Both the position numbers and the translations under genes were made by a program. A stretch of 31,309 nucleotides of DNA from Clostridia bacterium (GTDB lineage Bacteria; Bacillota; Clostridia; Christensenellales; UBA1242): positions 1-31,309 of the forward strand of contig JAFVTB010000065.1 in NCBI GenBank assembly GCA_017503445.1. Reading direction: 5' to 3'. Shown here in pieces: positions 2,248 through 28,922 of the stretch (position 1 is its first letter; each line of letters begins with the position of its first letter). Below the pieces are notes generated by a model. The model worked only from the letters and a program-made list of their open reading frames with translations, did no database searches and was not told where the DNA came from.

Positions 2248-2265
2248 TTTTCTCCACTTTTTGTT

Positions 2266-2271
2266 ATTATA
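2266..2271 (-). promoter_or_regulatory. Possible internal -10 hexamer (TATAAT) upstream of the 194-aa gene
   Basis: Perfect TATAAT on the minus strand 19 nt upstream of ATG 2247, in the 48-bp gap after giant B. No convincing -35. Confidence 0.3.
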
Positions 2272-2295
2272 ATACAATCAAAGATAAAAATGCTA

Positions 2296-5200
2296 TTAAA
2301 TTAAGGCGTTTTCTGTGTATCGGGTTTGAATATTGCCTGTTTGTGCGGGCAAGGTGATATATTCTGTCTTCAAAAACTCTGCACGCACTGTGCAATCTTC
2401 GTCTTCCCACTTGCCAGCATATTCTGGTGAGGTTTTATTTGCAGGGGTTTGAGATGTTTCCAAAAGCACGCCCCATGGTTTGTTTTTGTAATCATATTTG
2501 CCAATAAGGGTTGTGTGGCTGCTGACCGCATTGCCATAGCCCAAAATGCCACCAAACCATGTGACAAGTTGTGCAGATGATTTGTTATCCACCACAGAAA
2601 CATTGATTTTGCCATTTGCCAAAGATTGATAATTGCCCAAAAGGGCGTTTTCTGTGGCTTTGTCAAATATCACAATTTCGCCCGCATAAAGTTTTGTGTT
2701 GTCTGCAAACGTTGCACCAACAAGGCCGCCAACATATGTTGTCAGCACACCACCATAAATTGTGCAGGTGGTTTCAATATCCATATTGTTTTGCACGCCC
2801 ACAAGTGTGTGCGTTGCGCGTGGAAGGGTTTTGAAAATTGTTTGTGTGCCATCTTGCTGGGCGCGCGTGTCTGCTGCATCATAAACCATAACCACTTGGC
2901 CAACTGCGCCACCTGCATAAATCATCATCACATTCACAAGGTTCAAGTTGATTTTTCCTTGCGTTACAACAAATGCAATTTTTGCGTTTGTTGGCGTGAT
3001 TGAACTTTGGGTTTGTGCGGCAATTGTGCCGGCAAGGCGCCCAACAATGCCACCAACAGAAATTGATGTGATGTTATATGCGTTGTTTGATGCGTTTGCC
3101 AAAATATTGCCATCAAATTGCACGGCGGTGATGTTGCCACCAATCATATCACCCGCAACGCCACCAATGTTTTGTGGGGCAATAATGTTCCAAACAAGGT
3201 TGATTTCAATGTTTGCATTTTGGATTGTGCCACCACAAAGCAATCCACAAATGCCGCCGGCGGCAATTGCCGATGTGGCAGATGTGTCGGCTTTTTTGAT
3301 AAAGTCTGGGGCTGTTTCGCCAAGCACATGAATGTTTTGAAGTGTGCCAGAAATCATGCCCGCAATCACACCACCATAAACCAACGGGGTGATTGAATGA
3401 TTTTCGGTGACTTCTTGCACAATATTTTTCACTTCAACATTTTTGCCAATCACACCAAACACAAGGCCACAAACTTCTGCAATTGCAGAGCCATTGTTTT
3501 CAAACTTGGCGCCCACAATTTTTCCGCCGCTGTGCGCAATGCCAACAACGCCGCCTGCACAAGAAACATTTTCAAGATTTGATGCAGTTTGGAAAAGTGT
3601 GAACTGTTTCTTTGAAAGCGCGCTTGAAAAGCTTGCATTTGCAGAAACACTTGATGTGATGTTTTGCATTTTGAAGCTGCCGCTTGCGATGCCAATCACA
3701 CCACCAACTGCATTTTGGCCAACAACCTTCACACCATCGCTTTGGGCGCTGAACCCATCACACAAGATGTTGAACACTTTGCCGCTGGTAAGGGCACCGG
3801 CAAGAGTGCCGGCGGCTTTGGCATTTGGTGTGTTAAGATAGTATGGCGAAAGCACAAGATTTTTCACAACACCGCTTTGGCCAATTTGGCTGAACAGGCC
3901 TTTTGCATCGGCTTTTTCGCGCGTGTCAATTGAAAAACCGGAAATTTCCATATTGTTGCCTTCAATTGTGCCCAAAATTTTCAGTTTGTGGGTTTGGCTG
4001 ATATTCACAGAATCGCGATAATCGATATCACTGATAATCCGGAAGTTTGCGGAAACAACATTTTCAATTGCATTGCCGTTTAAATAACTTTCAAAGGTTT
4101 CTGCGCTGTGGATAAGGATTGGGTTATACACACTTCCCGCCGCGGCTTTGGTTTCAATATAAGAATAAATTGTTTCGCCGGTTTCGGGGCTTGTGGTGGT
4201 GTTTTCTGCATCCAAAACTTTTTGCGTGTTTGCCAAAAGGTTTGCCGCAACAAGTTCTGGACGTCCAAATGTGAATGAAAGGTTTGCGGTGAGGGTTTTA
4301 AATTCACTTTCAACACCTTTTGCAGGCCAAAACCACACACCTTCTGTTTTGTTGATGTTTGATGAAATTGCAAAATTTTCAAAATTTGATGCATTTGCAA
4401 AATCTGTGTCGTTTAAGGCAGTTAAGCCATCGATGAAAAGCTGTTTGTTTGCTTGGGCATTGACATTGCCCACAAGGAAGAAGCAATCTTCATAAGTTCC
4501 AACCGTGCCACCATCAATACGATTTGATTGCACAAAGATGTATGTTACTTGGCCAGGAATAGAGAATGTTGATGTTGTATAGGCGCGCGCGATATGCCCA
4601 CTGTTTTCTTTTACAAAGCCCGCACAAATTGAACTTGCGTTTATCAAGATGTCTGAATAACAATCTTGAATTGAATTGAAGTTTGAATACACAAATCCCG
4701 CAACGCTTGGCATACTGCTGATTGATTTTGTTGGGGTTTTAGAATATATGCTGGTGGTGGAAGTTGCCCCCGCAACATAACAACCACTTATTGCCGCATT
4801 TGAATTTGCGGAAGAGCCATTTGTGATTGCAAAACCCGCGGTTTTGTGTGATGAGTTTGAACTTTTGTTGACAATCATGCTTTCACGCACAAAGCTTGAT
4901 GAAACTTTGCCATTATTGATGCCCACAAAGCCCGAAACATTTGCCGCCGCAGACATATCCACAGAAACAAAACTGTTTGTGATAAATCCATTGTTGATCC
5001 CCACAAGACCGGCAACATAATTTTCAGGGGCATTTTCACTTTGATTTGGAAGTGACACAGAAAGCTGTGCAAACGCGCCACCAACAATTTTGCAGTTTGT
5101 GATGATGCCATTGTTTTCGCCCACCAGCGCACCAAAAGCAATTGTGGCTTCATTATTTGAAATAATGATTGTGGTAATACTTGGCACAGAAAGCGTGATG

Positions 5201-8200
5201 TTTTTCAGCACAGCACCTTCATTAAGTGTGGCAAATAAACCAAAGCGATCGCCTTCTTCAAACAAAAGATTTGCCGGCAAAGCGATTGTGTGGCCATTGC
5301 CATCAAAACTTGCAATTGCGGTTTCAAGCGGTGCAAAGTTTGTTGGCAACGTGATGTCTTCCATAAGGATATAATGCGCGTTATCACTCATTGCCAAAAA
5401 TTCTTGCACATTATTCACAGGGATGGCATTTTCCAAACTTGAATTTGGATAAACATCCAAAACAAAATCGGTTGAAACATCAAATGCATTTGCGTTTTGC
5501 CCAAACACCGCTTGGCCAAGTTGATAATGATATGCCCCTTGATATGAAAGATAATATTTTGTGTTTTCACATTCATTAATGCGAAGTGGTGTGATTGTGT
5601 GGCCGGCAATTCTCAGATAATTGCTTGTTAAATTTGTTTGGCTTGTGATTTGCAAACTTTGCACAAACTTGCCAAGCACTTCGTCTGCCATATCCACCGC
5701 TGTGATTGTCCAGCCCCCGTTTTGCGAAAGTGAATCTTCAAAGTTTTGAACGCGGTTGAAAATTTCATCGTTTGTTTCATCAAATTCAATTGTTTGCCCA
5801 AACACAAATTCATTTGCAAGGGCAAATGGGTTGCCAACAGCAAGCCCAACAGTTGCACCGGTTGCACCGGAAATAAGAGTTGATTTATCAAAATTTGAAA
5901 GTGGTTCATTTGCATTGTATGCACCCAAATTTTGTTGCAAAATCACAAAATCAACAATAATGATTTTCATGGTTGAACGTCCACTTTGATATCTGATGCC
6001 GTCCACAATGTTTTCTGCATAAGTGGTGATTTCAACCGCAAAGCCCTGTTGATTTTGACTTGCAGAGGTATAGGTGATGTTTTTTGCAATAACAAGTTGA
6101 TATTGCCCGTCAATTTTTTGCACACGTGCAGCGGTGGTTGCAATGCCTTCATGCGTGATTTCAATTTTCACTTGATCTTCCGTGAAGCCATAGATGTTTA
6201 ATGAAAGATCATATGTAAGGCCGCGGGCAAGATAATATTCATCTGCATCTTCGCGTGCATCAATTGTGAAGAACACGCTGTCTTTCACCACAACATTCAG
6301 TGGCAAAATGTTTTCTGTGATTGGGGTTTGATTTGGTGATTTATATGTTGAAACCACAATTTTTGCTTGTGTGTCAACGGTGGCTTTTGAAACGGTTGTG
6401 TATCGCACAAACAGCCGTGCAACATCTGCACCCAAAAGTTTTTGCGATGTCATGACATCTTTTGAAATCACAATGCCATCAGGAAGATATTCCACACCCG
6501 GCAAAAGCACAAAATTGTTTTGGGTGTCAAGCATCATCACCTGCATCAAAAGCACATTGTTTTTGTCATAGTTTTCTTCATGGTTTTTGATGACGATATA
6601 ATCATAATCTGCAAAATATGGATAAAGGTTGACTTCCATAAGATTATAATCACCGCTTGAAACTTGATTGCTTTCTTTGCCACCAATTTGATATGTGGTG
6701 TCAATGTCATAATAATTTTTCAGGGAAACACTTTCGATGTTTTGGGTTGCAAGGTTTGCGATGATTGTCAAACTTTTTCCATTTTGCGCAGTGAATGAAA
6801 GATAGTAAACACCTTCATAACCACTTGAATATTTGTTATAATCAAAAGCAATTTTCAGGGCATAAACATTTTGATATGTGTTTGTTTGTGGGTTAAAGGT
6901 TTGTGTTTTTTGTTGGCTTTTGATTTTGAAATAATCTTGCGGTCCACCAATATTGTCTGTTATCTTCACCGCTGCAAAATCAAGGGTGTCATCTTCAAAA
7001 TCGGTGATTTGAATAATTTCAAGGTTAAGGTCGTCCACGGGTTCAACACTGGCATCTGCAAAATTTGATGAAATGCTTTGTGTGCCAAGTTTTGAAAGAA
7101 CATCAATTTCCACACCGCCAATATTTTGGCTTATTGTATCAAAATTTGTCATTGTGGCAGAAATATTTGAACCGTTTGCAATGAATGAAACCTCAAAACT
7201 TGGGGTGAAAGAAACGCTGTTTAAATGATTTGTGCCAAGCGTTTGATTTGTGCTTGTGAAGATAATCATATTGCCGTATTTTTGTGCGGTTGTATAATAA
7301 TAATCCGAAACTTCATATTGAATATTCACCGTTGGTTCAGATGCATTTGCAAACTGCACTTCAACAATTTGCCCCATATCTCCCGCTGCAAGGATGCTTT
7401 GTGCAGTGAATGAAAATTTGATTGATGCAGGGCTGTGATTAAACACATTTATGAATGCACCACTTGCAATTTCATCACCCGAAAGGGTTTGAATTTTCAT
7501 GGCATCAAACGCGGTTGAAACATTTATGAAAACTTTGTTTGTGATGCTGGTGTCAAGCACACTTTGAATTTGCAATGTTGCAACACCGGTTTTATAAAGC
7601 GTGATTTTTCCAAAGCCATCAATACTCAGGATTTCAGGTGAAAGCGAAGTGATGATGATGCTGTCGGCCTGGGCAAACACAAACGGGATATCACGGTTTG
7701 TATTCAAGTGGTTCACAAGGGATTGCTCTTGTGGGTTTTCCGCCACAAATATGAACATATTGGCAAGTTGATTTGCACCAACACCAACAACCTTGTCAAA
7801 TTTTTGGGCTGTTGAGGTTTCAGTTATGCCTGTTATGGCAATTGCATCAGTGGTTTCAATAAATGCACCCTTTGATGCCATTTGATACGCCCCGTTAAGG
7901 AAGTGATAAAGCATTGGTGCACGCTTTTGTGCAAGATCAATTTCAAAAAAGCATTGTGCAACATTGCCGTTTGCAAGATATGCATTGTCTGCCAAAACAT
8001 TGCCACAAAATGCACCAATGTTTCCACCGCTTGAAATGGCGGTGAGAAGCGGTTTGACATTAAATGCCTTTGCCGCTTGAACTTTATTGTTTTGTGCATT
8101 TTGTGGGGCGTTGTCAAGACCAACAATGCCACCAACAAAATCAACTGCGCTGATTTGCGCGCGCATTGTTGCGGCTGTGATGATTGCAAAGTTTGCCCCC

Positions 8201-11200
8201 GCAACGCCGCCAACATTTTGCCCGCCTGAACCATTATTGGCAATGGCGCTGATTGTGCCGCTGATGGCCTGATTTTGAATGCATGCGGTTGCATTATCTG
8301 CTGCACCATTTTGCCCAACAACGCCACCTGTTTGCGCAAAACCAACACTTGAGATATTAATGATTTGCGTATAGTTGTTATTGTTAAAAATTGATTTTTG
8401 ATTTTCTGCGCGCGTGATTGTGCCAAGGTTTTTGCCCACAACGCCGCCAAAGCCGTTTTCAACAGATTTGCCCGCATAAGATGCTTCAAACGCCCCAATT
8501 GTGGTGATTGATGTCAAATTGAAAATTGTGTTTTTAAAATTGAACATTTGGGCACTTTTGTTTGCATGAGTGTTGTGACCATTTTGAATTGTGCCACTGT
8601 TTGTGCCAACAATGCCACCAACAAAGATTTTGTTTGATGTTGCATTGTCTTCAAGCGCAACATTTGAATTTTCAAGGCGCACACTGATATTATTTAGCTC
8701 GCCCAAATTTTCGCCCGCCACAAGCCCAATGTTGTATGTTTTGTTTTCGCCAAGGTTTTCAATGGCAACATTGATGCTTCCTTCAATCACAAGGTCATTA
8801 AGTTTTGCGCCCGCCAAAATGCTTGGGAAAAGCCCAAAATTGTTGATGCCGCTTTGGGCATTTTTGTCGGTGATTTGAAGATTGACATTCACAAGTTTTG
8901 CGTTTGCGTTGCCGCCACTGATTGAGCCAGCAAGCGGTTTGACATTTTCAAAAGTGTATCCCGCAAGGTCTATGCTTGAGATAATCAAATAATGTTTTGC
9001 GGCGGTGTGCGTTTGGGTGATTGCTGTCATAAACTCTTGGGCTGTGCTGATAAGTTCTGGAAATGCCTCATCCGTGCCATCTGAATAGACAACTTTCACC
9101 TTTTGCACACGATCTGTTGGGAAAGTATCCCCCTCTGCAAACATTGTGCGTGGCACAAAGTAAAGCGTTCCGCTTCCGTTTGCAACGGTGCTGTTGTGCT
9201 GAACGTAAACTTGACTGCAATCGCCATTCACACTGACATTCACCAAATTTGCATATTGCGGCGCACTTGGCACAAACACAACATCAAATTTTTGGATATC
9301 GGCAAGTGGATCCATATATGTGAAGAATGTGAAATTATCATTTGTGCCTGAAAGATAAAGTGTTTCTTGATAGTTGGTTATACCCACATATTCAAGCGGG
9401 GTGAATGTTTTGACATTGATTGAAAGTGCTGCGCTGTGCGAAACATTGTGATGCGTCAGAGTGATTGTGAACACGAATGTGCCTGTCAAGGCAGCATCAT
9501 AATTGCAATTGAACAAAAGTGTGTTGCCTGAAATTGCAAAATCACCAAACTGATTGATAAAGAAATTTTCGCCGCGGCTGATCAGCGCGCCATATGATGT
9601 CATAACGCTGATTGCGCCATCATATTCACTGAACACATTTTCAATCACATCGCCGTTGGTTAATGTAACGCGAAAATCACATTGGGCTTTTGCAAGGGTG
9701 TCATATTTGTATCCCACATCCCCCAATCGATTCAGGGCAAAGCCGGATATTTCTGTTTCCACAGGTTTGCCGGCATCGTCCTGTTTAGTCTGCACAAATT
9801 GCAAACTTTCAATTGGGCAATAAACATAAATTTTCACAGTGAATGTTATGTTGTTTTCGGGATTTTGAGTGTCAATGATTTCAAAGTTTTCTGAAACCTC
9901 TTTCTTTGCAAGTGATATTGAAAGGGTTGCAAACTCATCATCTTGCGTCATATCCAAAACGCGCACAGTGATGATGCCATTTTGCACCTTTGCAACATCT
10001 GCAATTTGTGTTTTATCAACCTGGCTTTGCAAGGCAAAAAGTGTTGCATCGCTTTCTTTCTTTGTGATTGCAAACATAAGTGTGTTTTCGCCCGTGTATG
10101 CCACTTGAAGTTCGGCAATATTGCCATTTGCGTCTGCAGTTGTTTGGGTGATATCTTCACTTGGATTCACAGAAAGTGTTGCACCTGAAAGGGATTTGAC
10201 AACCTGGAATTCCAAATCTGCAAAGAAGCCATCTTGAGCGGTGATGCGCACTTGCACAAAGCCGGTTTTGTGTGGCACAAGCTCAAGCTTTTTGGTGCGG
10301 GCGCCATGTTCTGTGATTTGCGTGATTTTCAAAATGCTTTCATCGCCGGTTTTGTATTCAATATCAAAATCTGCAAGTTCAACACTTTCAAGGTTGATGA
10401 TTTCAAAACCATCAAACACTTTTGCGCCGCCATCCACATCAAGATAAAGCGTTTTTGGAAGCGTCAAGCCGCCTTGTTGAATTGTATATTGATCTGCAAG
10501 AGTGAAACTTTTAATCCCTTCCTTGATTTGCACAGGCACAATGGTTTGCACATCTGCCGCAATTGGCGCTGCACCTTCAATTTGAAGCGGTTGAACCGTC
10601 AGCACAACAAAGATTGGTTGCGCAAACACATTTTGCGCCAAAATGTTGATTGGAAGGATGCTTGTGTTGTTTGCAAAATCGGTGAATGGAATTTCAAACG
10701 CCGCGGTTTTTGTTTGGTTTTTATATGTGATATTCAAATATTCAAAATATTCATCACTTTCAAGCAAATCCCCCGCAAGATTTTTTGTTGCAAGTGAAAC
10801 TTTCACGCTTTCAAAACTTGAAAGTTTATCAAGCACATTCACAAAGATTGCATAAGGCGTTTGTGTGTTGTCATAGATTGCAACGGGCTCGAGCCACTCG
10901 GCAATATTGTTCGCATTGATTTGATATGGCGATGTGATCACAACCACATCAAACGAAAGTTGTTTTTCATAGGTTGTTTGCCCAAATGTTGTGTTTGATG
11001 TATAGCGTAAAGTGATTTTGATTTTATCGGTGCCCACACTTGTGCCTTGCACGCTGAAAAACTTGCTGTTTGAATGCGATGAGGCATATCCTTCAAGCTC
11101 TGCAATATTGTTTGGTGCAATTTCTGTGCATTCGCAAATGTTTGATGAAATTGACATTTGCACATCAGGCGTATCACATTCAACCTCAAACACAAGATAT

Positions 11201-12051: not shown

Positions 12052-12057
12052 TTTTTT

Positions 12058-12063
12058 CTCCTT
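12058..12063 (-). promoter_or_regulatory. Shine-Dalgarno (AAGGAG) of giant lipoprotein B
   Basis: Minus strand reads AAGGAG-AAAAAA-ATG (ATG at 12051). Confidence 0.8.
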
Positions 12064-12118
12064 CTCAAAGCCAAAAATTGTGTGTGATTGTAAGTTGTTT
12101 AAATTTATTCGTTTGTGT

Positions 12119-21600: not shown

Positions 21601-23907
21601 CATTTGTGTGGTTTTGGCGTTTTCAATTTTGCTGGCGGTGAAGCAACTGGTGATTTTGCCCATATTGCTGTGCACAAAGCCCGCAGACAAACGGCCACTT
21701 TGCGCCAAATCTTGACTTGCAAGCAAGATGTTTGCATAGCAGTTAGAGATTTCGCCATTATTAATCGCAATAAATCCCGCACCCGTGCCGGCGGTGGTGA
21801 TGCCCTTGCCAAGCAAGGTGAACGCATCTTCACCCGTGCCTTTTGCATAACTTGTGGTGATGGTGCCGGTGTTGTATCTTGCAAAGCCACTGGTGGTTGA
21901 AGAAAGGGTGCCAATTGTGGCGTTTGTAAGCGTGCCATTTGCAAAGAAACTGCTTGAAATTGTGCCGCTGTTGGTGTCCACAAATCCGCTGATGTTGCCC
22001 TGGGCGGTGATGTCAAAAACTTCAAGACGGGCGGCTTTGCCATTAACTTTTTCAAGGGTTGTGCCACCCACACGGCTGTTGGTGATGAAGCCATTGTTTG
22101 TGACAACAAACCCGGCGGTGATGCTTATGAATGTGTCTGTGATATTGCCGCCATAAGAAACATCAATGCCTGCGTTTGCGCTTTGATTTTCTGCATATGC
22201 CACAACTTGGCAGTTGTATATAATGCCATCATTGGATATTGCCAGCCCCGCAACCCTGAGTTCATCAACAACGTTTGTATTTACATCAATTTGATTATCG
22301 CCATAAAGGTTGATTGTCAGGTTCTTAAGGGTGGTGTTTTGGGCAACATTATCAAAAAGTGCAAGTGAAAGACTGTTTGATTCAGTTTCAGTGTTGAAAG
22401 ATTTGATATGAATTGTGAAGTTGTTGCCATCAAGACTGTTAATGGCATTGGTTGAAAGCGGTGAAACATTTTCAAGATACAAATCATTCATAAGAATATA
22501 ATCTTGTGGTGTATCGCTTTCAAAAGCGTCATAGAATGCTGTTTCATTGTCAATAATCAGTGGCAAATCTTCATCACTGAACGGTGCAACAACAATCGTG
22601 AAATCAAAAGAAATTTCATAAAGGTTTGTGATTGTTGTGTGCGGATATTGAATTTGCATCACAAAGCGCAAATTCACTTCGCCCTGGCGCTTGCCAATGA
22701 TTTTTATTTGGCCGTTTTCTTCTGTGAAAGTGAAATAGTTGTTTGGTTCAAAGCTTCCATCATCATTCAAAAGTGCATATTGGGTTGAGCCGTTGACATA
22801 GTAAAGATTGCCCAAAAAGCTTGCTTTGCCCGCCTTGCCAACATTCACCACATAATTGCCATAACTGTTTGTGTTTGACAAACTTTCATAATAAAAGTTT
22901 TGAAGGAACGCTTGGAAAGAAGGGTTTTGATTGGTGTTGCTTTTGCCATCAAAATCAAAGTTTAAGATGTTTTGCACACCGATGTATGAATAAAATGTTG
23001 ATTTATCTGCTTTGTCTGTCAGAAGCGTGATTTGGTCAACCTTGAAATCAACAATGCCAACTTCACATGTGCTGACTTTTCTTTGCATTTTTCCATTTAC
23101 GATCCAAGAGGTTGTAACCTCGATGGTGATATAATTTTCTGCATTGTCAAGTTGTGCTTCGCTGCCCACTTCCAGTGCATAAGCATAGGTGCGTGTTAAA
23201 GAAAATGCATCTTCAATGATTTGTGTGCGTGTCAGGGAAATTGATTTTTCTGCACCACCAAGCCCATTTGTCACGCCCAAAATATTCACAAAATCAAGTG
23301 TAAGGTTTTGTTCCTTTGGAAGAGTGATCAAAAGTGTTGATGTTGTGCCGCGCGCCACAGTTGAAACGCTGTTGCCAGCATTATCCACAATTTGGATCAT
23401 TGCATCTTCAAGATATTCAACCACCAAATTGAATGACGAAACCTTTTGATTGTTTGCCACAAGATTGATGTCAAACACAGCATCTTTGTTTGTTGAAATT
23501 GGAAGATATGTGCCAAGATAAAGCGTTGTTACGGCATTTGTGTTTGCCGCGTCAACACCAAAAATTCTTATGCCATTTTCAAGGGTTTGCACGCGCTTAT
23601 GTGATTGACGGAATCCCGCATTGCCGTTTTGCGGATTGACATATTTTTCCATGAATGCCAGTGCAAGGGACAGATCTTGCCCATTTTGTTGAGTGTAGGT
23701 GATGTCAAGATAATCCCATGTTGCAAAGCTTGGATATATATCAATTTGCAAAAGCCCTTCTTCGCCAGGAGCAATAATGTTGTTTGAATTTTTTGTGTTG
23801 TATTCATAAAACACAAAGTTTGTGTTTTGGGTTTGGTCAAGAAGCACAGATTTGTTTTGAATTTCAAAATGATTGATTGTAACAGAAAGAATTTCTTGGT
23901 TATTCAC
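12184..23907 (-). CDS. Giant lipoprotein A, central fragment (3,907-aa ORF): Ig-like segments plus five GLUG-type beta-helix modules; the last ~160 codons are off-frame
   Basis: No signal peptide or RBS at the GTG 23907, and the frame is open upstream to 24075. Dozens of GG[ILV]VG rungs. Module motifs FSDEDLPLIIDNETAF, YGSQINPIIIRTAAEF, YYIDVAADLQKM, EGTKLNPIEIDSMADM, GTGAEDDPMFIGSVGKL. Confidence 0.85.
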   Translation of the reverse strand: MNNQEILSVTINHFEIQNKSVLLDQTQNTNFVFYEYNTKNSNNIIAPGEEGLLQIDIYPSFATWDYLDITYTQQNGQDLSLALAFMEKYVNPQNGNAGFRQSHKRVQTLENGIRIFGVDAANTNAVTTLYLGTYLPISTNKDAVFDINLVANNQKVSSFNLVVEYLEDAMIQIVDNAGNSVSTVARGTTSTLLITLPKEQNLTLDFVNILGVTNGLGGAEKSISLTRTQIIEDAFSLTRTYAYALEVGSEAQLDNAENYITIEVTTSWIVNGKMQRKVSTCEVGIVDFKVDQITLLTDKADKSTFYSYIGVQNILNFDFDGKSNTNQNPSFQAFLQNFYYESLSNTNSYGNYVVNVGKAGKASFLGNLYYVNGSTQYALLNDDGSFEPNNYFTFTEENGQIKIIGKRQGEVNLRFVMQIQYPHTTITNLYEISFDFTIVVAPFSDEDLPLIIDNETAFYDAFESDTPQDYILMNDLYLENVSPLSTNAINSLDGNNFTIHIKSFNTETESNSLSLALFDNVAQNTTLKNLTINLYGDNQIDVNTNVVDELRVAGLAISNDGIIYNCQVVAYAENQSANAGIDVSYGGNITDTFISITAGFVVTNNGFITNSRVGGTTLEKVNGKAARLEVFDITAQGNISGFVDTNSGTISSSFFANGTLTNATIGTLSSTTSGFARYNTGTITTSYAKGTGEDAFTLLGKGITTAGTGAGFIAINNGEISNCYANILLASQDLAQSGRLSAGFVHSNMGKITSCFTASKIENAKTTQMAFVGVDDAGNLLNTGTIKNGYYYNADTIEGDAYSNQTANLNVVRVAEPNNPDNFYGFSFADSATSVNGVWFSTGYGIDLVSANQIAVSNRYIANEKRDEITGELLSYNLPYTAGYEYGSQINPIIIRTAAEFNRAVGGDHENAGTAISQYYNLGQQTVFGNYRIISNINLQDLNPDNSQTASISSTNMTLDGGVLDGNMLMISGLDLTANSDTVIENFGLFKALQNNACIKNLSISVVSVSAKQVRFVGTLAGTVENSKILSITIKNQSDIADSTILGNNVVGGLVGLVSGQSEVKDITITSLGVKANALATTSQNFVRGITNQSLSYAGGVIGIADIFTSAEKSSWARKTETQTSNLSNLVANGNMQVRASTAGGVIGLLGPQANLRDATFESPADIAKIVAYNFYAGGIVGECFGNIDMAKAQHDAITQKQIENNVSAYYQNPENDIQRGNLDLFDDTSDGYIISTYAPVAIGGIVGNLITGEIQHSYSKLNVKNPNSNFAGGLVGKISACQNPKHDRNKITFFETYAFGDVLANDAAGGAVGYIENTRTVIMTKVNAVNLWGLVLDKDGEYHIPDNAFQIYGATNAGNVNTLATYDVKNNVVSMNGTDALPKIITTSNPEDMFAITEVKFASGSDAISEYIKPSFAFMEGGAPYNLVYDPYYGLQTNQKTGAEEISSQAVTPYFDLTDPATNGLAMDTYFIQANWDSNYWVRYTQTNDLLPSLVTFTESMCYYIDVAADLQKMLYHPYATFIVRGLNQPSTIIPVGNYIENTNLILANFSGTLKGMDNSLNYGFDFEGKSSFILATTGASFYNLTIQEIGRKGNALNSQNQAFIDTATQTSFENILIKDCYATTQISETNFNVGLLANKLVGGYMNGISVQDSVVDARVAQNINANELPFINVGMVAGQLQTLGNAICQITDVCVYQTSSESNFQNNGTNNVQLDLNGTNLENTEISIGAIFGETIGNVATTFSSKSAGDLVKGIGVATSTLAKYHLGASTAQNPKGTVLTLSGSGNVKTFNAGLLFGKVNTMKVAFARTVQTQKLQVVGGINQTGDALGNFASISQANLGGIIGKVETTASIQNTTTGATKFAATDVGTNFVAKTINAGGLVGLAANLSKIENLETFGEINAKGTLETNLGGLVGTLNSSIEIANTVSNTNLKFVGQNAFVGGILGAYTATSGALVLGDENFGTKYTGQIIVSGENIAAGGILGALKADTNILSQSLIQNAVFDGEITLSKMTGDAWIGGILGNSKSAASITAPNVTLSNCLALGDINVLHDYYAQNGLGVKVYVGGLVGLGSDRTTLSNNTSLVSLASKTASGLDGVHINALVGQANGAKAAASESNFYAHQMSLCLDFNDGIGATNLYYKQTTQASQFSILDLLEPYIATLFGEPEEGTKLNPIEIDSMADMQNAAEIFAAEKTKKVVGLITGPFTYDQNITPLDGKLAHLMGDGHQIITHSTLFASIDEKSAISGLSLVPSIEKLTPTTSSDLNASAVGTVANINNGFVFACAVKTTNISAHEHTSLAHTGSAYVGGIVGYNTGVIMDSFSAINITANGNAGGVAGYNSGNIISTYSVGNVDGGFAFTQGDGAVYSSYTASPATAGVFGTNQTVVDSFYDLYSVGKKSSATETTDTKTFSVLDTAENKKLLFENAQSDKKFAYVVGENFGYPTFAASAYANLDYMRGIATGTGAEDDPMFIGSVGKLQQISDAATNNLHYQLICDMAVTDDMKSMFTTMKAQTYKQFNKNFAVIDWAPIANFKGTLSGAYGEDGKYAIQDFTTSIERTEWAIFGKVENANISNLEIKYSSTLEINAKTLAGLATEISGTTLDNITLDAGVVKSTAAGTVALAGLVGATSDADNDSKITNINLEITKLQADKSTNATIGGLIANMQSTNATMLKGITFANGFEIVATGTGENIGGGLAGNVSNVFASEINFKGEISITNSGSASAIFGGLAGNAQTISSTNVTLDNISLTSTGTGQTTFGGFFGTASGVGKAYAEDENNNSVQVPFSANAKIITLTSNSTTAEENCLGGIAGTLANSVIESASESPLSVTGINITQKNVGTLVAGGIAGSDAGSTIKGFAPAATIANEKAGLSNLGGIVGNANGTEIHAKDVDLQSYKFIFGVEDGKNQDASELTVGGLVGFAQNQTKLNGISGVTTVKNNLAITDHTKSDIHLGGLAGYLDGSEVNTATIESIKLEGTQIGAVASYITGSTLQNVTISNPDLTASFNSSNIAYAGGVAGKIENNSTLSNVKIDGGTLETGDIPTKEVEDADGNKEDVEQKATSYIGGFAGSMSGTIDGESTSTLEIKIKTGGFAGGLVGKGEDLSIIGVNISSSVSANLEKSQKGSDLFVGGIVGDYDAGKVGEDDGQITNTTFTGNVSSSDVAFVGGIAGKAKGKFTNITIGGNITELATYDKLCAPSGVAVGGVAGSANDATFTYITVQSVTKITGTYIAGGIVGLGSDITITGSASQDITGTNNYYDNNISGIISTEGDGNEAKKPLVTASYAGGVVGKVSGTSTIEACKSTAIVQAGWKTIASKDKLTARDFFWYDSQNDDEYQQDKTKEKLKKRVQQVNAASKGAETAYAAGIAGYASDKTTFKLVENGGTVTAKAKPQLAITSSSRYDVQNIWGYYSYDAYAHYAKETENAYAAGVAAFMSPESTLEKCLNSGTITGGGEVEFNLFTTDEDKTDTDNLYKTYALGYSFTYTEDGGKKDINNLFEEIYKNDPAGTQAWIKAEKEGIKLVGAANASNDYYKYETGSQYGFTPLANSADAGNYVLTTDWSKADSTTQTGNAATTMHYAQYNASYYPSYHLTSSTTVLFPAGTKLQQHSPSSSIYCPAFYFMANETNEGTTFTGPYIHIYERPSTYYNEETKEDEPITLYYYYVPEITSSGEIVFKESKIIEPLYNTSEWTALKNNVQSSECWITLNSLATYKAYYAGGSKCDFPTKDNFNNPSFAYTFQTQMARFSALNHIINFQKITAHLNCLIFKLQTTLQRLHKFHSQIKNLMIQSRRILMMISFLVTQWQFGKAAKASPLMAQPMRQWTANTALCAAPTLIPKNLPTQAKPFGLQHGQAQAMKECMQSCTGKKTQTFLCILFRKAAMCISKDISLKVQSHTPMA

Positions 23908-23957
23908 CGTGATTACAAATGGTTTATATACAAGGTTAAAGCCAAAATTTTGCTGAT

Positions 23958-26900
23958 TTAAAAGTGCGGTTTTTGATGTGATTGCAAATTCAAATGTTGC
24001 GTTTGCAAAATCTTGGGCACGATATTCTTGATTGATTGAAAACTTAACTTCAAAGTTATAAACAAATATTTTGCATCAGCACTGTCCGACAACATGGTTT
24101 GCAAATCCGCGCTTGTATAAAATTTGGTTTCAAGAAGGTTTATTTGATAATCAAACAAATTGCTTGGGAATGTGCCAAAGGTTTGTAAAACAATTTCCAA
24201 TCCTTCACCGTCTTCAAGTTTCACATCTGTGAAAATTTGCACATTCAAAGTTGTGATATCCGCCGGCTGCATTATGGCATCTGCTGCAGAAATTTCAATT
24301 TTATCCGCACCGCGATAAACATTGATTGTGAATTTGCCTGAAAATTTGTTGCCCAAAATTTCGTTAAGGATATCATCTGTGTTTGTGCCGGCAATGTTAA
24401 GTGTGTAGGTGATTTGTGTTTTTCCATCTGCAAGTGTTGCAGTTGACACCGTGAATGGGCCACTTCCGCTGCCGGTGATTGCCAAGTTATCAAACAAAAC
24501 ATCAAAATCTTGGGTGACAAAATCAATCATTCGCGCATCCAAAACTTTGCTTTGGGCAATTGAAACATTAAAGCCCGCGCCCGCTGATGTTTTCACATTC
24601 AAAACAAAGTTTTGCGCATATTGATTTACACCAACAATAAAAGTTGGATTTTTGATTGGGTTAATAACAAAAATTTCAAAGGTTTTAAGCACTTCGGCGT
24701 TATATTTTGAATAAAATGTCACTTGCGCCGCGCCGGTGCCAACAATTTGCAAGCCAACAGGCGTTGCCGCAATCACCGCCGCATTGTTTGAAAATGCCCT
24801 TATGCCAAACGCGTTTTCAAACAAATCTTCAAACGCAACAAAGTTCAGGTTTGCAAGTGCCAATTTTTCAACATTTGAAAGTGTTTCTGCAGTTTGCCAA
24901 AACATCAAAATTGCCTTTTGATTGGCACTGATGAAATCACCAGCAAACATGTCCGGAATTTGGGTGATTGGCGCCGTCAGTTTCACCGCTTTGAAAACAG
25001 GAAGCGTTCCGCTGGCATCCCAAACATCGTTTGTCTTGATTGCGGCAAGATCACCAGCAGCCCCGGTGTTTTCGATTTTGACAAAGTTATAAAAATATGT
25101 GCCAAGCATCGCCGCATCATCGGCCGCTTTGTATGTGATATATGCATTTTCAACAAACAAGTTTTCTGTTCCAGACATTTGTGCAAACATATCTTTTTGA
25201 TTTTGCACAAAGCCAAAAGATGTGTTGACCTTGCCCCCAAAAATTGCCCCCACAAGCACACCAACTTTGCCACCTTGCAAAAGTTGGGTTGCTTTTTCAA
25301 GCGGGATATATGATTGGATATATGAATTTGTCAGTTCGCCATCGGTCAGTTTGCCCACAAGGCCACCAACAGTTGCGGCGGCGCCATCAATTTTGCCAAG
25401 TTGGGTTTGGGCACCTTGGGTTTCAACATATGCACAAAGTTCAACTGCGCAAAAATCAATTGTGCCGCGGTTTTCACCCGCGATGCCGCCAACACTTTGT
25501 GTTGATAAAAGATTTTCACCAATTATTTGCCCGGCAAATGTTGTGTTTTTGATGCTGCCCGCATTGATGCCAACAATGCCACCAATGGCTTGACTTTGAC
25601 TTTCAGCCAACAGCACACTTGGTTTGGCGAACGCGCCAGTTTGCTGCTGGGCATCAACAACAACATTTTGGATAAGCCCATTGTTTTCTGTTGCAACAAA
25701 TCCTGCGCCTGCCACTTCACCACAAATCATAAGATCTGCAATAACAGCTTTTTCAGAAAGTGTGCCAAAAAGCGGCAAAGTTGTTGTGATGATGGCTTTT
25801 TCGCCACCTTCAACAAGCGCGCCATAAAGCCCGCCGGCAAAATTTGCGCTGATTGCAAAAGATTCATCAAGTGCGCTTGCACTGTTGACTATGATATTGT
25901 CAACAAGTGTGAAATGCAGGTGCTGCATCTGATTTGGATTTTGTGCATAAGCTTCAAAATCTGAAAGCGATGACACGCGGAAAGATGTTTCGCGGCTTTG
26001 GCCATCGGCAACCACCAATGTGAAATAAAGCGCGATATCATTTGCACCAGGGGCATATTGATTTTGGGCATTATATCTGTCTGCAGGTGCGATGCGAATT
26101 TGCCCATAAGTGCCTTCTTTGGCATTTGCGGCAACGGTTAAAAGCCCGGTGGTTTTATTCAGGGAAATTGCACTTGCAGGCGCAGTGATGTATGGCAAAA
26201 ATTCATAAACCAAATTGGTGTTATGCGGCATTTTGCCACCTTCACCCACTTGCACATTTGCCACAATTTGGCGGGTGATTGCCTTGCCGTCATATGTAAG
26301 GGGGATATAAATGCCTGTGTCAAGATTGACATTGTGCGCAACAATTTTTTCCACCTGCACCGCACGCGTGATTTTCACAATCACTGAAAGGCGATATTCG
26401 GTGTTGAACTCTTTGATAAGTGCTGTGAACGCAAATTCCACTTCATCTGCCAAAACAGGATTGCCCGCATCATCATAAATCCAAGTTGAAAGGGCGGTGA
26501 TTGACAGGGTTTTGTTATTATCACTGATTTGGGTTTTGTAAACATCTTTACCATTCACTTGATAAAGCGGGCTGGCGCCAAGCCATGTAATGTTTTGATA
26601 TGTCGCATTATTCAAACTTACCACAACATCGGCCGCGGTTTTGTGATAATCTTCAAACCCAACACTTGCCTGGCTGAACAAATTCAGTGCATAAGTTGAA
26701 AGGGCAAAATTTTGCACAGGAACATATCCTTCCACAAGGAAATAATATTTGTATTGCACTTCGCCAAGTTGAAAAATTGTTTTGCCATTTAAGGTTGTTT
26801 CTTCAAGCTTTAATCCTTTTGCAACAACTTGCACCCAAGCTTTGCCAACGGTGGCGGGCTTGATTTGATCAAGCGCCAAAAACTTGGTGTCAAGCACGTT

Positions 26901-28922
26901 GCTTGTTGTTTCATAGGCCAAACCGCTTGGGTTTGCTTGGTTTTCGGCAAAAAAGTTTTCATAATCCGTTTGGTTGTCATCGGATTTTATTATATCAAAA
27001 AATCCATATTCCACACCTGTAACACCAAGCCCTTCACGCGTAAGGGTGATGCTTGCACCCTTGGTGATTGCCACGCGGAATTGCCACGCAGCATCATTTT
27101 GACGTTCCATAAATCCAACTGCGGAATTTGTTTGCGCAGAAGGAACAAAAAACTGCACTTCATCTTCCACAAGCTCATAAATCACGCGCACAAATGCCTG
27201 CACAAAATATCCGTTTGCTTGGCGCAAAGTTATTGTGGCTGTGCCTTCCTTGCCTAAAACACTTTGGATTGTAAACTGGAAGAAATCTGTTTGTGCGATT
27301 GGGGCGCTGGTGATTTGGATCACGCTTCCACTTTGTTCAACAGAAAGGCCACGAAGATCCACCGTGTCGGCCGTGAACTGCACAACTTGCGTCATCACTT
27401 GATTGCTTTTAAGATTGTAATAATACATCACTTCGCCATTTGGGGCGGTGATTGTTTCACTGGCATTAATAAAACTCATTTCTGTTGTGCCTGCAGCGGC
27501 GCTGAACGTCAGCACTTGCTTCACAACAGGGTTTTCTTTTGCATAAATCTTCACCTGTCCGGCAAGGGCATTATGTGTGCTTGCCTTAACAAAGATTTTG
27601 CTGTCGCCACTAAACTCAACCTTTCCATCAACAAACTCAAGACCTTGTCCGTCTTCATCAAAAAATTGATATGCGCCCGCATTCACGCCAAGCTCCAAAA
27701 CCAAAAATTTTTCGGCATCTGAAACTGTTGTTGGCAAAACATTGAATGAAAGTTCAAGCCCAAGTTTGTTTTTGTATTCGTTATAAACGGTGAACTGGGT
27801 TTGATTTGAAAGTATGCCATCAACAAACAGTTGGATTTTATTCACGGTGTCCTTCACCACAACTTCAATTGGCTTGGTTGTGAAAGAAAAATCAAAATCG
27901 TTGTATTTGGCCACAAAGCAAATATCATCTTTGCCAAGGGCATCTTCCGCAGAAAGTTCAAACACATATTGTGTTGCCACAAGGTTTCCGTTGCCGTCAG
28001 TAACTTCGGTTTTCTTGCCAATTGCAAAACTGATGTATTTTGATTGTTGACCATTAGTGCTTAAAACATATGGGGTGATTGTAAGCGGCTTGTTTGATTG
28101 CACTTCAATCATAAATTCCACAGATTGCCTTGCCGCAAGGTTTGCGGAAAGTTCAATTGTTTTTGGAAACTCGTCTGTTCCTGGCTGATAAATTGGTTCA
28201 AGTTCCACGCCCGCGTATGTGATTGACTGCACAAGCACAGAATTTTCATCAAGCGGCGCCAAGACATCAACCGTCAAAATTACATCACTGCCCGCAAGGT
28301 GCGGACTTGTGGCACGAATGTCCACCGTTGGTGCGGCATAATCCTTGCCCACCAAAATCATCCCATTTGCAAGGGATATATTTGGATTTGGCACAACAAG
28401 TTCAAAATCCAAAGTTTTTTGAGTGGTGTTTGATGGTGTGAAAGCCACAAGATTTGCGCTTGCCAAATTTTTGGCTTGTCCCTTCACCACAAAAAATTGA
28501 TCCAAAGCTGATGCAGGGGAAATCATCTGCACCGGCACTTCAACCGTTACGGTGAATGTTGCACTTTTGCCGCCCTCAAGGGTTTTCACCTCCACAACCG
28601 CATTTGTGCAAACCGCACTTGCCGAGATTGAAATAACCGTTTCCTGCTGATCATTCATGCTTGTGGTGATGTTCAGTTGGGTGGCATCGGTGCTGACAGA
28701 CAATTCACGGCTTATACCTTCTGCCCCCTCCACCATCGCAATAACCTCTTTAACCTCCGAAACACCGTTTTCAATTTTCAGCACGATTTCAGAAACCGAA
28801 AGATTGACTTTCAGGTTTTCATATTTATCGCCACAGCCGGACAAACTTGCACCAAAAAACATCAGCGCAAAGCACGCCAAAAAGCCCAAAAAAACATTTG
28901 TGATTTTTGCAATTTTTTTCAT
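23958..28922 (-). CDS. Giant lipoprotein A, N-terminal fragment (1,654-aa ORF): lipoprotein signal, Ig-like repeats, first GLUG-type module; the last ~36 codons are off-frame
   Basis: GAGGGT RBS at 28936-28931. Signal MKKIAKITNVFLGFLACFALMFFGAS-LSGC with canonical lipobox Cys30. Rungs such as IGGIVGINAGSIKN and VGGIAGENRGTID. The N-terminus resembles giant B (GC.GDKYENLKVNLSVSEIVL vs AC.TPNYDNVSMSLSTNKIEM). Confidence 0.88.
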   Translation of the reverse strand: MKKIAKITNVFLGFLACFALMFFGASLSGCGDKYENLKVNLSVSEIVLKIENGVSEVKEVIAMVEGAEGISRELSVSTDATQLNITTSMNDQQETVISISASAVCTNAVVEVKTLEGGKSATFTVTVEVPVQMISPASALDQFFVVKGQAKNLASANLVAFTPSNTTQKTLDFELVVPNPNISLANGMILVGKDYAAPTVDIRATSPHLAGSDVILTVDVLAPLDENSVLVQSITYAGVELEPIYQPGTDEFPKTIELSANLAARQSVEFMIEVQSNKPLTITPYVLSTNGQQSKYISFAIGKKTEVTDGNGNLVATQYVFELSAEDALGKDDICFVAKYNDFDFSFTTKPIEVVVKDTVNKIQLFVDGILSNQTQFTVYNEYKNKLGLELSFNVLPTTVSDAEKFLVLELGVNAGAYQFFDEDGQGLEFVDGKVEFSGDSKIFVKASTHNALAGQVKIYAKENPVVKQVLTFSAAAGTTEMSFINASETITAPNGEVMYYYNLKSNQVMTQVVQFTADTVDLRGLSVEQSGSVIQITSAPIAQTDFFQFTIQSVLGKEGTATITLRQANGYFVQAFVRVIYELVEDEVQFFVPSAQTNSAVGFMERQNDAAWQFRVAITKGASITLTREGLGVTGVEYGFFDIIKSDDNQTDYENFFAENQANPSGLAYETTSNVLDTKFLALDQIKPATVGKAWVQVVAKGLKLEETTLNGKTIFQLGEVQYKYYFLVEGYVPVQNFALSTYALNLFSQASVGFEDYHKTAADVVVSLNNATYQNITWLGASPLYQVNGKDVYKTQISDNNKTLSITALSTWIYDDAGNPVLADEVEFAFTALIKEFNTEYRLSVIVKITRAVQVEKIVAHNVNLDTGIYIPLTYDGKAITRQIVANVQVGEGGKMPHNTNLVYEFLPYITAPASAISLNKTTGLLTVAANAKEGTYGQIRIAPADRYNAQNQYAPGANDIALYFTLVVADGQSRETSFRVSSLSDFEAYAQNPNQMQHLHFTLVDNIIVNSASALDESFAISANFAGGLYGALVEGGEKAIITTTLPLFGTLSEKAVIADLMICGEVAGAGFVATENNGLIQNVVVDAQQQTGAFAKPSVLLAESQSQAIGGIVGINAGSIKNTTFAGQIIGENLLSTQSVGGIAGENRGTIDFCAVELCAYVETQGAQTQLGKIDGAAATVGGLVGKLTDGELTNSYIQSYIPLEKATQLLQGGKVGVLVGAIFGGKVNTSFGFVQNQKDMFAQMSGTENLFVENAYITYKAADDAAMLGTYFYNFVKIENTGAAGDLAAIKTNDVWDASGTLPVFKAVKLTAPITQIPDMFAGDFISANQKAILMFWQTAETLSNVEKLALANLNFVAFEDLFENAFGIRAFSNNAAVIAATPVGLQIVGTGAAQVTFYSKYNAEVLKTFEIFVINPIKNPTFIVGVNQYAQNFVLNVKTSAGAGFNVSIAQSKVLDARMIDFVTQDFDVLFDNLAITGSGSGPFTVSTATLADGKTQITYTLNIAGTNTDDILNEILGNKFSGKFTINVYRGADKIEISAADAIMQPADITTLNVQIFTDVKLEDGEGLEIVLQTFGTFPSNLFDYQINLLETKFYTSADLQTMLSDSADAKYLFITLKLSFQSIKNIVPKILQTQHLNLQSHQKPHF

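What the first reader, a model, noticed from the sequence alone, without database searches (positions are those of the whole stretch)
2296..28922. Giants A and B are colinear paralogs; A is B plus a ~2,350-aa distal extension
Ordered motif pairs (A vs B): VVADGQSRETSFRVSSLSDF / VYSDGTDEAFPELISTAQEF; NIIAPGEEGLLQIDIYPSFATWDYLDI / NQVSSGDYNLMEVNLYPYFADYDYIVI; VGIVDFKV / IIIVDFVI; AGFVVTNNGFITNS / AGLVGINNGFITNS; NGVWF...DLVSANQIA / EGVWF...ELVAANLLA; YGSQINPIIIRTAAEF...NYRIISNINL / AGSVYNPILIHSAETF...NFRIISDIDY. Similarity persists to about position 20,000 in A, where B is near its end. A then adds at least three more modules. Identity looks low, so the duplication is old and both copies have been kept. 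That suggests distinct roles, for example short and long reach or an obligate pair.
Basis: seen in the sequence. Interest (0 to 1): 0.75.

Follow-up and report, generated by a model that had tools for sequence, protein, structure and literature searches.

The report
Long and short giant lipoprotein paralogs
Two neighbouring genes filling 27 kb of a roughly 1 Mb gut-bacterium genome encode a long and a short version of one giant membrane-anchored surface fibre; the duplicate pair is ancient, is kept across a family of genome-reduced Clostridia, and only the long copy carries a swappable tip.

Summary
B (2296-12051, 3,251 aa) and A (12119-28922, 5,601 aa once two 1-nt gaps are bridged) are colinear paralogs.

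- **Colinearity:** BLASTP gives only three diagonal blocks. Profile-profile tiling puts 28 of 29 tiles of B1-2218 on A's diagonal, and the double beta-helix core follows it at P 97-99.
- **Extension:** B ends near the end of the third beta-helix module. A adds three more modules and a Tyr/Trp-rich tip, about 2,500 aa in all.
- **Folds:** the non-repeat parts model as Ig-like arrays and the core as two right-handed beta-helices.
- **Anchor:** both proteins start with a lipobox.
- **Age:** the pair occurs in 76 of 101 sampled genomes of the family and in 0 of 145 from other families of the order. The long copy lies upstream in at least 20 genomes, and the long and short trees mirror each other.
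- **Taxon:** a near-identical strain is a published UBA1242 (Christensenellales) MAG.
- **New points:** A is intact in four other metagenomes and five other assemblies, so this window carries a broken allele. A's tip consists of two cassettes exchanged between strains that are otherwise 98-99% identical, whereas B shows no such exchange.

An adhesin role is inferred. Physical pairing of A and B is untested.

The parts
12119..28922 (-). Gene A, the long giant lipoprotein. It has 5,601 codons when the two 1-nt gaps are bridged. In this window it is split into ORFs 28922-23958, 23907-12184 and a third frame that runs to 12119.
   Evidence: Intact orthologs of 5,193-5,591 aa align end to end. Conspecific strains have an intact 5,636-aa ORF ending 67 nt before B.
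24063..24064 (-). Frameshift 1. One T is missing from a T4 run on the coding strand.
   Evidence: Contigs of 4 of 4 runs from 4 studies insert one base behind 24063. The 99.4%-identical contig L061 and protein P0018 read through in frame.
12671..12672 (-). Frameshift 2. One A is missing on the coding strand. The intact reading is F-A-Y-N-L-S-N-T-D-G-K.
   Evidence: Contigs of all 3 covering runs insert one base behind 12671. L066 has one gap here. Orthologs show the same motif.
2296..12051 (-). Gene B, the short giant lipoprotein (3,251 aa), intact.
   Evidence: Full-length orthologs at 84-34% identity. Five strain copies of 3,251 aa differ by 6-21 residues.
28833..28922 (-). A signal peptide with lipobox (L-S-G-C), followed by a conserved x-x-x-Y-x-N motif.
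   Evidence: Read directly. 121 of 140 related giants have a lipobox-like motif within residues 11-40.
11983..12051 (-). B signal peptide with lipobox (F-S-A-C), followed by the same post-Cys motif.
26031..28832 (-). A first beta-rich array, presumed Ig-like and not modelled here (about A31-964). Colinear with B24-987.
   Evidence: hhalign tiles. No Pfam family.
25173..26030 (-). A beta-helix module H1 (about A965-1250). Colinear with B988-1333.
   Evidence: Module HMM hits. Pfam Glug scores 24.4 bits against a cut-off of 20.5 when the module is scanned alone. hhalign P 97-98.
22615..25172 (-). A second Ig-like array (about A1251-2103). Colinear with B1334-2192.
   Evidence: hhalign P 93-98 over B1425-1559 and B1637-1944. 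The B counterpart models as a string of Ig-like sandwiches.
19669..22614 (-). A double beta-helix core, H2+H3 (A2104 to about 3085). It is the best conserved part; A2104-2860 aligns with B2193-2904.
   Evidence: BLASTP E 4e-45. hhalign P 97-99. AF2 pLDDT 85 and pTM 0.89, two right-handed beta-helices.
13179..19668 (-). Distal extension of A with no counterpart in B. It holds beta-helix modules H4 (about A3090-3830), H5 (about A3845-4130, resembling H2) and H6 (about A4139-5100, rungs resembling H3), plus the start of the Tyr-rich region.
   Evidence: Cap motifs at A2559, 3845 and 4139. Module HMM hits. Off-diagonal BLASTP hits of A3883-4067 and A4654-4777 to B2234-2436.
12550..13178 (-). A tip cassette 1 (about A5249-5458). 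It is replaced by a non-homologous 735-nt version in L061-L064.
   Evidence: blastn identity is 98-99% up to 13179 and then lost. Protein identity drops from 98-100% to 41-61%.
12119..12549 (-). A tip cassette 2, the terminal domain plus stop codon. It is replaced in L066 (73% identity with 50 gaps) but kept at 97% in L062-L064.
   Evidence: No Pfam family.
9091..11982 (-). B first beta-rich array, presumed Ig-like and not modelled here (about B24-987).
8053..9090 (-). B beta-helix module H1 (about B988-1333).
5476..8052 (-). B second Ig-like array (about B1334-2192).
   Evidence: AF2 pLDDT 84. Foldseek probability 1.0 to multi-Ig arrays: NUP210, titin I65-I70, DSCAM, Sap S-layer.
2299..5475 (-). 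B double beta-helix H2+H3 (B2193 to about 3190) and a 60-aa C-terminal tail.
   Evidence: Among strains the C-terminal 250 aa carry 0-1 differences.
28964..28993 (-). Promoter-like site about 40 nt upstream of A's ATG: TTGACA, 18-nt spacer, TATAAT, with TG before the -10 element (12 of 12 consensus positions).
   Evidence: This is a consensus match only.
1663..2277 (-). Small membrane protein after B. It is 194 aa if translation starts at 2247.
   Evidence: 27% identity (E 2e-17) to the 201-aa gene in the same place in L005. A 194-aa gene is called in the strains.
260..1678 (-). Phosphohexomutase (PGM/PMM family). It overlaps the small gene's end.
   Evidence: NCBIfam hits, all below the equivalog cut-offs. 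The gene sits in the same position in L005 and L062-L066.

Best explanation
**Shown.** A and B are ancient tandem paralogs.
- They share one domain order: lipobox, beta-rich array (presumed Ig-like), beta-helix H1, Ig-like array, then a double beta-helix H2+H3.
- B stops after H3. A continues with three more beta-helix modules and an aromatic-rich tip made of two cassettes.
- The long/short pair is older than the radiation of its family. That family is UBA1242, Christensenellales: 0.7-1.6 Mb genomes from animal guts.
- The pair is retained in most sampled members, usually in tandem with the long gene first.
- In this species A's two tip cassettes are exchanged by recombination between strains that are 98-99% identical elsewhere. 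The five full-length strain copies of B differ from the window's B by 6-21 residues with no replaced block.
- The window's own A allele carries two frameshifts.

**Inferred.**
- Both proteins are lipid-anchored by their N-terminal Cys and extend outward as rigid fibres of two lengths.
- The C-terminus is therefore the distal end.
- The variable tip of A binds a strain-specific ligand, most likely a glycan on a partner cell, host surface or particle.
- B presents a constant distal beta-helix nearer the cell.
- Together they serve attachment in organisms that published genome analysis predicts to depend on partners.
For: **Colinearity**
- Pairwise and profile comparisons.

**A is one gene**
- Orthologs of 5,193-5,591 aa align end to end.
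- P0018 reads through both breaks.
- Contigs from 4 studies insert exactly one base at each break and show no other indel over 12 kb.
- Conspecific strains have an intact 5,636-aa ORF.

**Folds**
- Core: AF2 pLDDT 85, pTM 0.89. Foldseek hits PL6 and GH55 two-beta-helix enzymes, IgA1 protease 7uvl/6xja (probability 1.0) and BACOVA_03286 3n6z (0.99).
- B1330-2190: pLDDT 84, multi-Ig arrays at probability 1.0.

**Anchor**
- Lipobox in A, B and 121 of 140 relatives. No LPXTG motif in either protein.

**Age and retention**
-.

**Taxon**
- B is 99.4% identical to the product on JBKSMU010000066.1.
- That accession is MAG KA0036-72, family UBA1242, genus UBA5489, in Table 1 of PMC12306168.
- The same paper predicts a partner-dependent lifestyle for UBA1242.

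**Tip exchange against constant B**
-.
- The tip has Tyr 9.9% and Trp 1.7%, against 3.8% and 0.4% in the rest of A.

**Expression signal**
- A consensus promoter lies upstream of A.
Against: - No experiment or expression data. The only RNA run found holds 5% of the sampled words.
- Lipidation, surface exposure and binding are all inferred.
- The tip has no recognisable family and was not modelled.
- The beta-helix fold is shared with polysaccharide lyases and hydrolases, so an enzymatic role is not excluded.
- The tree is unrooted, and the short/long split has 89.9 support (not starred).
- Three genomes (G044, G004, G021) carry two long-clade copies instead of a long and a short one.
- In this window's strain A is broken while B is intact. 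At least this lineage therefore persists without full-length A, unless the breaks are artefacts.
Confidence: 0.7

Rival explanations
1. The A-B similarity is only generic beta-helix rung (GLUG-like) similarity plus chance motifs, not colinear homology.
For: Many off-diagonal rung matches exist. A960-1155, A3883-4067 and A4654-4777 all hit B2190-2436. Pairwise tiles are silent over A180-960, A1260-1620 and A1770-2100.
Against: 28 of 29 profile tiles of B1-2218, most of them outside beta-helix modules, have their best hit on one diagonal. P is 86-100 in the N-terminal 375 aa and 93-98 in the second Ig-like array. The post-lipobox motif is shared.
Confidence: 0.02
2. The giants are secreted or anchored enzymes, such as polysaccharide lyases, glycosidases or proteases built on beta-helices. 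In that case the pair differs in substrate rather than in reach.
For: The top Foldseek hits of the core are PL6 alginate lyases and GH55 glucanases, which also have two tandem beta-helices (E 5e-6 to 5e-4). IgA1 protease follows at probability 1.0. There is a sub-threshold Peptidase_M26_N hit in A's H6 (20.2 bits against a cut-off of 27.7).
Against: TM-scores are low (0.13-0.26) and identity is 8-14%. No Pfam or NCBIfam catalytic family reaches its threshold. The IgA1 protease match covers only part of that chain (about 400 aligned columns of about 1,285 residues), and no M26 catalytic-domain family is found in A or B. About half of each protein is Ig-like stalk, which is typical of fibres.
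Confidence: 0.1
3. A and B are structural envelope components, such as an S-layer-like coat or spacer, rather than adhesins. On this view they are kept because the reduced cell needs them for integrity.
For: They are retained family-wide, have a strong consensus promoter and are cotranscribed with a phosphohexomutase. The Ig-like array also resembles the Sap and SbsB S-layer proteins.
Against: Cassette exchange confined to A's distal tip is the pattern expected of a ligand-binding end, not of a lattice former. About 25% of sampled family genomes show no hit. This window's strain tolerates a broken A.
Confidence: 0.13
4. A is a contact-dependent toxin-delivery filament (CdiA- or WapA-like) whose variable C-terminus is a toxin.
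For: A is a giant beta-helical filament with a sharply delimited, exchangeable C-terminal region.
Against: No immunity-sized ORF follows: B starts 67 nt after A's stop. No VENN-type pre-toxin motif is present. The tip pieces hit no toxin family. The tip is aromatic and beta-rich rather than nuclease- or deaminase-like.
Confidence: 0.04
5. A and B form an obligate heteromeric fibre. This sub-hypothesis of the reader is compatible with the best explanation.
For: The two are co-retained, co-oriented and show mirrored phylogenies. The N-terminal approximately 150-aa domain is the best conserved non-helix part between them (P 100, E 1.5e-24).
Against: In several fairly contiguous genomes the two genes are far apart or on different contigs: G010, G013 and G004, and genus g52 with 17 kb of ordinary genes between them. 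This window's strain keeps B with a broken A. There is no positive binding evidence.
Confidence: 0.15

Closest known systems
Giant1-5 cluster of Apilactobacillus kunkeei (PMC12863079)
   Same: Consecutive paralogous genes for extracellular proteins of 3,000-8,000 aa that take several percent of a small genome (6% of 1.5 Mb there; about 3% of about 0.9-1 Mb here). [quoted passage not shown]
   Different: There the beta-solenoid sits at the N-terminal end and resembles the SRRP binding region. Here the N-terminus is a lipobox, beta-helix modules are interleaved with Ig-like arrays, and the variable part is the C-terminal tip. No sequence relationship was tested. The taxon differs (Lactobacillales against Christensenellales).
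GLUG-motif beta-helix of M26 IgA1 proteases (PDB 7uvl, 6xja) and BACOVA_03286 (3n6z)
   Same: Right-handed parallel beta-helix with Gly-rich rungs. Foldseek probability is 0.99-1.0 over 340-410 columns. Pfam Glug passes its cut-off on A's H1 module.
   Different: No M26 catalytic domain is present. Identity is 13-14%. B has no Glug hit at all. The modules here are repeated 3-6 times per protein and separated by Ig-like arrays.
Serine-rich repeat adhesins and other fibrillar Gram-positive adhesins (e.g. L. reuteri SRRP, 5nxk)
   Same: A beta-solenoid domain combined with a long stalk is a known adhesin design. 5nxk is a weak Foldseek hit (probability 0.77).
   Different: There are no serine-rich repeats and no LPXTG anchor. 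The anchor is predicted at the N-terminus via lipidation, so the polarity is reversed.
Phage tail fibres and CdiA-type filaments, as examples of exchangeable distal cassettes
   Same: A conserved shaft with a sharply bounded, recombining distal end.
   Different: There is no phage context and no immunity gene. Two separately exchangeable cassettes sit on a chromosomal lipoprotein gene.

Membership tests
Pfam PF07581 Glug / GLUG-type beta-helix | Glug HMM at or above the gathering score (20.5 bits) | tested here: inconclusive
   A's H1 scanned alone: 24.4 bits with 2 stretches, a pass. Whole ORFs and other A pieces: 15.6-18.5 bits, below the cut-off. B: no hit at E<=1.
Pfam PF07581 Glug / GLUG-type beta-helix | Right-handed parallel beta-helix fold like solved GLUG-bearing proteins | tested here: met
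   AF2 model of A2100-2860: pLDDT 85, pTM 0.89. Foldseek probability is 1.0 to IgA1 protease 7uvl/6xja and 0.99 to 3n6z. B's core is homologous to it (E 4e-45).
Bacterial lipoproteins (Lgt/Lsp substrates) | N-terminal signal peptide ending in a lipobox with an invariant Cys | tested here: met
   A has L-S-G-C with Cys30. B has F-S-A-C with Cys23. 121 of 140 related giants have the motif. This is a motif check only; no predictor was run.
Bacterial lipoproteins (Lgt/Lsp substrates) | Actual diacylglyceryl modification and membrane anchoring | not testable with these tools
   Needs biochemistry or proteomics.
Fibrillar Gram-positive adhesins (SRRP / LPXTG giants) | Tandem Ig-like stalk domains | tested here: met
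   B1330-2190 model has pLDDT 84. Foldseek probability is 1.0 to titin, DSCAM, NUP210 and Sap arrays.
Fibrillar Gram-positive adhesins (SRRP / LPXTG giants) | C-terminal LPXTG sorting signal or serine-rich repeats | tested here: not met
   No LPXTG anywhere in A or B. The C-termini are not hydrophobic.
CdiA/WapA-type polymorphic toxins | Variable C-terminal toxin followed by a cognate immunity gene | tested here: not met
   The tip is variable. However, B starts 67 nt downstream, there is no small ORF, no VENN motif and no toxin family.
Long/short giant pair of family f1 (UBA1242) | Two core-profile hits per genome, one in a >=5,000-aa ORF and one in an ORF of about 3,000-4,300 aa, in tandem with the long one upstream | tested here: met
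   Window: 5,601 aa followed by 3,251 aa, 67 nt apart. The same layout occurs in at least 20 sampled genomes and in L005, L006 and L007.

The most novel reading that the evidence does not exclude
The long/short pair is the family-defining attachment apparatus of UBA1242, a spore-forming but genome-reduced and probably partner-dependent lineage. A's two-cassette tip would set partner or host specificity strain by strain. B would be a constant proximal co-fibre. Natural A-null alleles such as this window's would mark strains that have changed or lost their partner.
Probability: 0.25. Interest if true: 0.85.

Novelty: new variant of a known kind. Interest (0 to 1): 0.6.

Why it matters
UBA1242 bacteria are common in livestock and poultry guts and have genomes under about 1 Mb. 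They lack most biosynthesis and standard transporters, and they are suspected to live off other cells (PMC12306168). How they make contact with anything is unknown.

This pair takes about 3% of the genome. It has no family annotation apart from a Glug-motif hit on one module. It has survived genome reduction across most of the family.

The pair gives a concrete, testable candidate for the contact structure:
- two fibre lengths;
- a defined variable tip with mapped recombination boundaries;
- an invariant partner gene as an internal control.

It also shows that pairwise comparison of giant repetitive proteins can miss full-length colinearity that family profiles recover.

Tried and rejected
- **Ungapped profile dot-plot.** Too insensitive. 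Only scattered colinear maxima appeared in the Ig-like regions.
- **Full tile-by-tile hhalign matrix.** Timed out. It was replaced by tiles against the whole profile.
- **First hhalign round with only 9 and 8 sequences.** Colinear top hits came at non-significant E-values in B150-975. Enlarging the families fixed this.
- **phmmer of B1330-2190 against 1.84 billion representatives.** Only 21 hits, all B-type at colinear positions.
- **Complex prediction of the N-terminal domains A31-180 and B24-168.** No verdict (score 0.15 against a mark of 0.34). This counts neither for nor against binding.
- **Protein-atlas search of an ortholog's tip, P0019:5060-5580.** No usable hit.
- **Pfam and NCBIfam on whole ORFs and on non-repeat pieces.** Nothing above threshold.
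- **The look-up of encoding contigs.** It refuses proteins above 5,000 aa, so contexts were reached through the B-type partners.
- **The search for related loci with the core alignment.** Failed because no conserved 7-10-column stretch exists. A single-sequence scan gave organism titles only.
- **RNA runs.** One metatranscriptome holds 5% of the words, so there is no usable expression evidence.
- **Programmed frameshifting at the two breaks.** Considered and set aside. Neither site is a slippery heptamer, and other strains simply carry the extra base.
Full report
**Layout.** The window is a whole 31.3-kb contig of a 0.87-Mb, 183-contig MAG (89% complete, 6.7% contamination).
- The minus strand carries ORFs of 1,654, 3,907 and 3,251 aa, followed by a small membrane-protein gene and a phosphohexomutase.
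- Upstream lie spoIIID-like, acyl-carrier and M23-peptidase genes.
- A perfect TTGACA-18-TATAAT site sits about 40 nt before the first giant ORF.

**A is one gene.**
- The tails of the 1,654-aa and 3,907-aa ORFs look out of frame, and a neighbouring frame continues plausibly at each break.
- Bridging both breaks with X gives 5,601 aa. Orthologs of 5,193-5,591 aa align to this end to end.
- A 99.4%-identical contig (L061, product P0018) reads straight through the first break.
- Contigs from four metagenome runs of four studies were laid on 12300-24400. They differ from the window by only two indels: one base inserted behind 24063 (4 of 4 runs) and one behind 12671 (3 of 3 covering runs).
- The window's breaks are therefore 1-nt deletions. 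The first removes one T from a T4 run. The second removes one A, so the intact reading is F-A-Y-N-L-S-N.
- One other assembly (L065, ENA ERZ28653793) calls the same 3,907-aa ORF and is gap-free against the window across the second break.
- The broken allele is thus either real in a sub-lineage or derives from related data. Conspecific strains L062 and L063 have an intact 5,636-aa gene ending 67 nt before B.

**Colinearity.** BLASTP of A against B gives three diagonal blocks:

| A | B | identity | E |
|---|---|---|---|
| 1-173 | 1-161 | 26% | 2e-7 |
| 1706-1747 | 1787-1827 | | 0.002 |
| 2100-2952 | 2188-3007 | 26% | 4e-45 |

- There are also off-diagonal module hits.
- Shuffle-calibrated tiles confirm these blocks but are silent in most of the Ig-like regions.
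- Family profiles built from 9 and 8 sequences put the best hit of most tiles on the diagonal, but often at poor E-values.
- Profiles built from 38 A-type and 17 B-type sequences settle it. In 28 of 29 tiles of B1-2218 the top hit is colinear, with the offset drifting smoothly from 0 to -118 and back to about -80. P is 86 or higher for B1-375, 858-1368, 1425-1559 and 1637-1944.
- The double beta-helix core follows at P 97-99 up to B2904/A2860.
- B2900-3251 matches rungs all over A.
- A continues after about residue 3085 with three further cap-delimited modules and a tip. The extension is about 2,500 aa.

**Folds.**
- The core (A2100-2860, 15-sequence alignment) models at pLDDT 85 and pTM 0.89 as two tandem right-handed beta-helices.
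- Foldseek finds two-helix PL6 and GH55 enzymes. With probability 0.99-1.0 it also finds the beta-helix of IgA1 proteases and BACOVA_03286.
- Pfam Glug passes only on A's H1 module scanned alone. B has no Pfam hit.
- B1330-2190 (27-sequence alignment) models at pLDDT 84 as beads of beta-sandwiches. These match titin, DSCAM, NUP210 and Sap arrays at probability 1.0. 'Ig-like' is therefore justified for this array.
- Both proteins begin with a lipobox followed by a shared Y-x-N motif, as do 121 of 140 relatives. Neither has LPXTG.

**Age and distribution.**
- B has full-length orthologs down to 34% identity and A down to 33%.
- In L005 the order A-type, B-type, small gene, phosphohexomutase is identical to the window.
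- More distant B-types also follow a giant gene: 6,514+3,176 aa and 4,685+2,875 aa. One relative, P0014, is solitary.
- A profile of the core finds hits in 76 of 101 sampled genomes of the family and in 0 of 145 genomes from other families of the order.
- 44 genomes have exactly two hits. At least 20 have a long and a short ORF on one contig and strand, 14-20 kb apart, with the long ORF upstream.
- Trees of the core separate short from long copies.
- In a 42-row tree of 20 genomes plus the window, the 18 short/downstream rows form one side of a branch (support 89.9). Mirrored sub-clades hold the same genomes.
- Three genomes carry two long-clade copies instead.

**Taxon.**
- B is 99.4% identical to the product on JBKSMU010000066.1.
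- That accession is MAG KA0036-72, family UBA1242, genus UBA5489 (PMC12306168).
- The paper describes the family as under 1 Mb, spore-gene-bearing, lacking most biosynthesis and probably partner-dependent. It does not mention these genes.
- A Candidatus Onthoplasma genome also has the pair, 6,245+3,497 aa.
- I found no paper in the held library describing the pair.

**Tip exchange.**
- A is 98-100% identical to P0018 up to about residue 5200 and then 41-61%.
- At the DNA level identity ends exactly at 13179 in L061-L064. There a 735-nt version replaces the window's 629 nt. Identity resumes at 12549 (97%).
- L066 keeps the window's first cassette but has a different terminal cassette (73% identity, 50 gaps).
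- This gives three cassette combinations among six assemblies.
- In the same species the five full-length strain copies of B differ from the window's B by 6-21 residues spread evenly, with 0-1 in the last 250 aa.
- The tip is rich in Tyr and Trp.

**Interpretation.**
- Paralogy, colinearity, antiquity and tip exchange are shown.
- Lipid anchoring, outward polarity, fibre geometry and ligand binding are inferred from motifs, folds and analogy with fibrillar adhesins such as the A. kunkeei Giant cluster (PMC12863079).
- Physical pairing of A and B was not supported or refuted.

Noticed in passing
G000:C65:347-2896 (another contig of the same MAG): An open frame of 977 aa is 80% identical to A's residues 150-1000. 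It is probably a co-binned related species or strain (bin contamination 6.7%) rather than a third paralog.
   Followed up: no
window 12119-13178; L061-L066: A's tip is built of two independently exchanged cassettes with shared breakpoints at 13179 and 12549. Some metagenome contigs also skip 12550-12645 (96 nt).
   Followed up: partly
L065 (ENA ERZ28653793, contig of 29,784 nt): A second assembly carries the same 3,907-aa ORF as the window, and therefore both frameshifts. Its B differs at 6 residues. The broken A allele may be real in a sub-lineage.
   Followed up: partly
window 28964-28993 (-): A 12-of-12 sigma-70 consensus promoter with an extended -10 TG lies about 40 nt upstream of A's start, in a 560-nt AT-rich spacer after spoIIID.
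   Followed up: no
window 1663-2277 (-) and 260-1678 (-): A 194-aa single-pass membrane protein with a beta-rich ectodomain and a phosphohexomutase follow B. The order is conserved down to 34%-identity orthologs (L005). It is not kept in more distant pairs (L006 has rpoB/rpoC there).
   Followed up: partly
L060 = G052:C1:74500-93000: In genus g52 the long and short genes are on one strand but separated by about 17 kb of ordinary-sized genes (largest 942 aa), not by a third giant.
   Followed up: yes
G044, G004, G021 (loci L050-L053, L058-L059): These genomes carry two copies of 4,700-7,000 aa that both fall in the long clade. This suggests a secondary duplication, or replacement of the short copy.
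   Followed up: no
window 29484-31309: spoIIID-like, SpoIIQ-like M23 peptidase and a lipoprotein gene sit in a genome under 1 Mb. This agrees with the published surprise that UBA1242 keeps sporulation genes.
   Followed up: no
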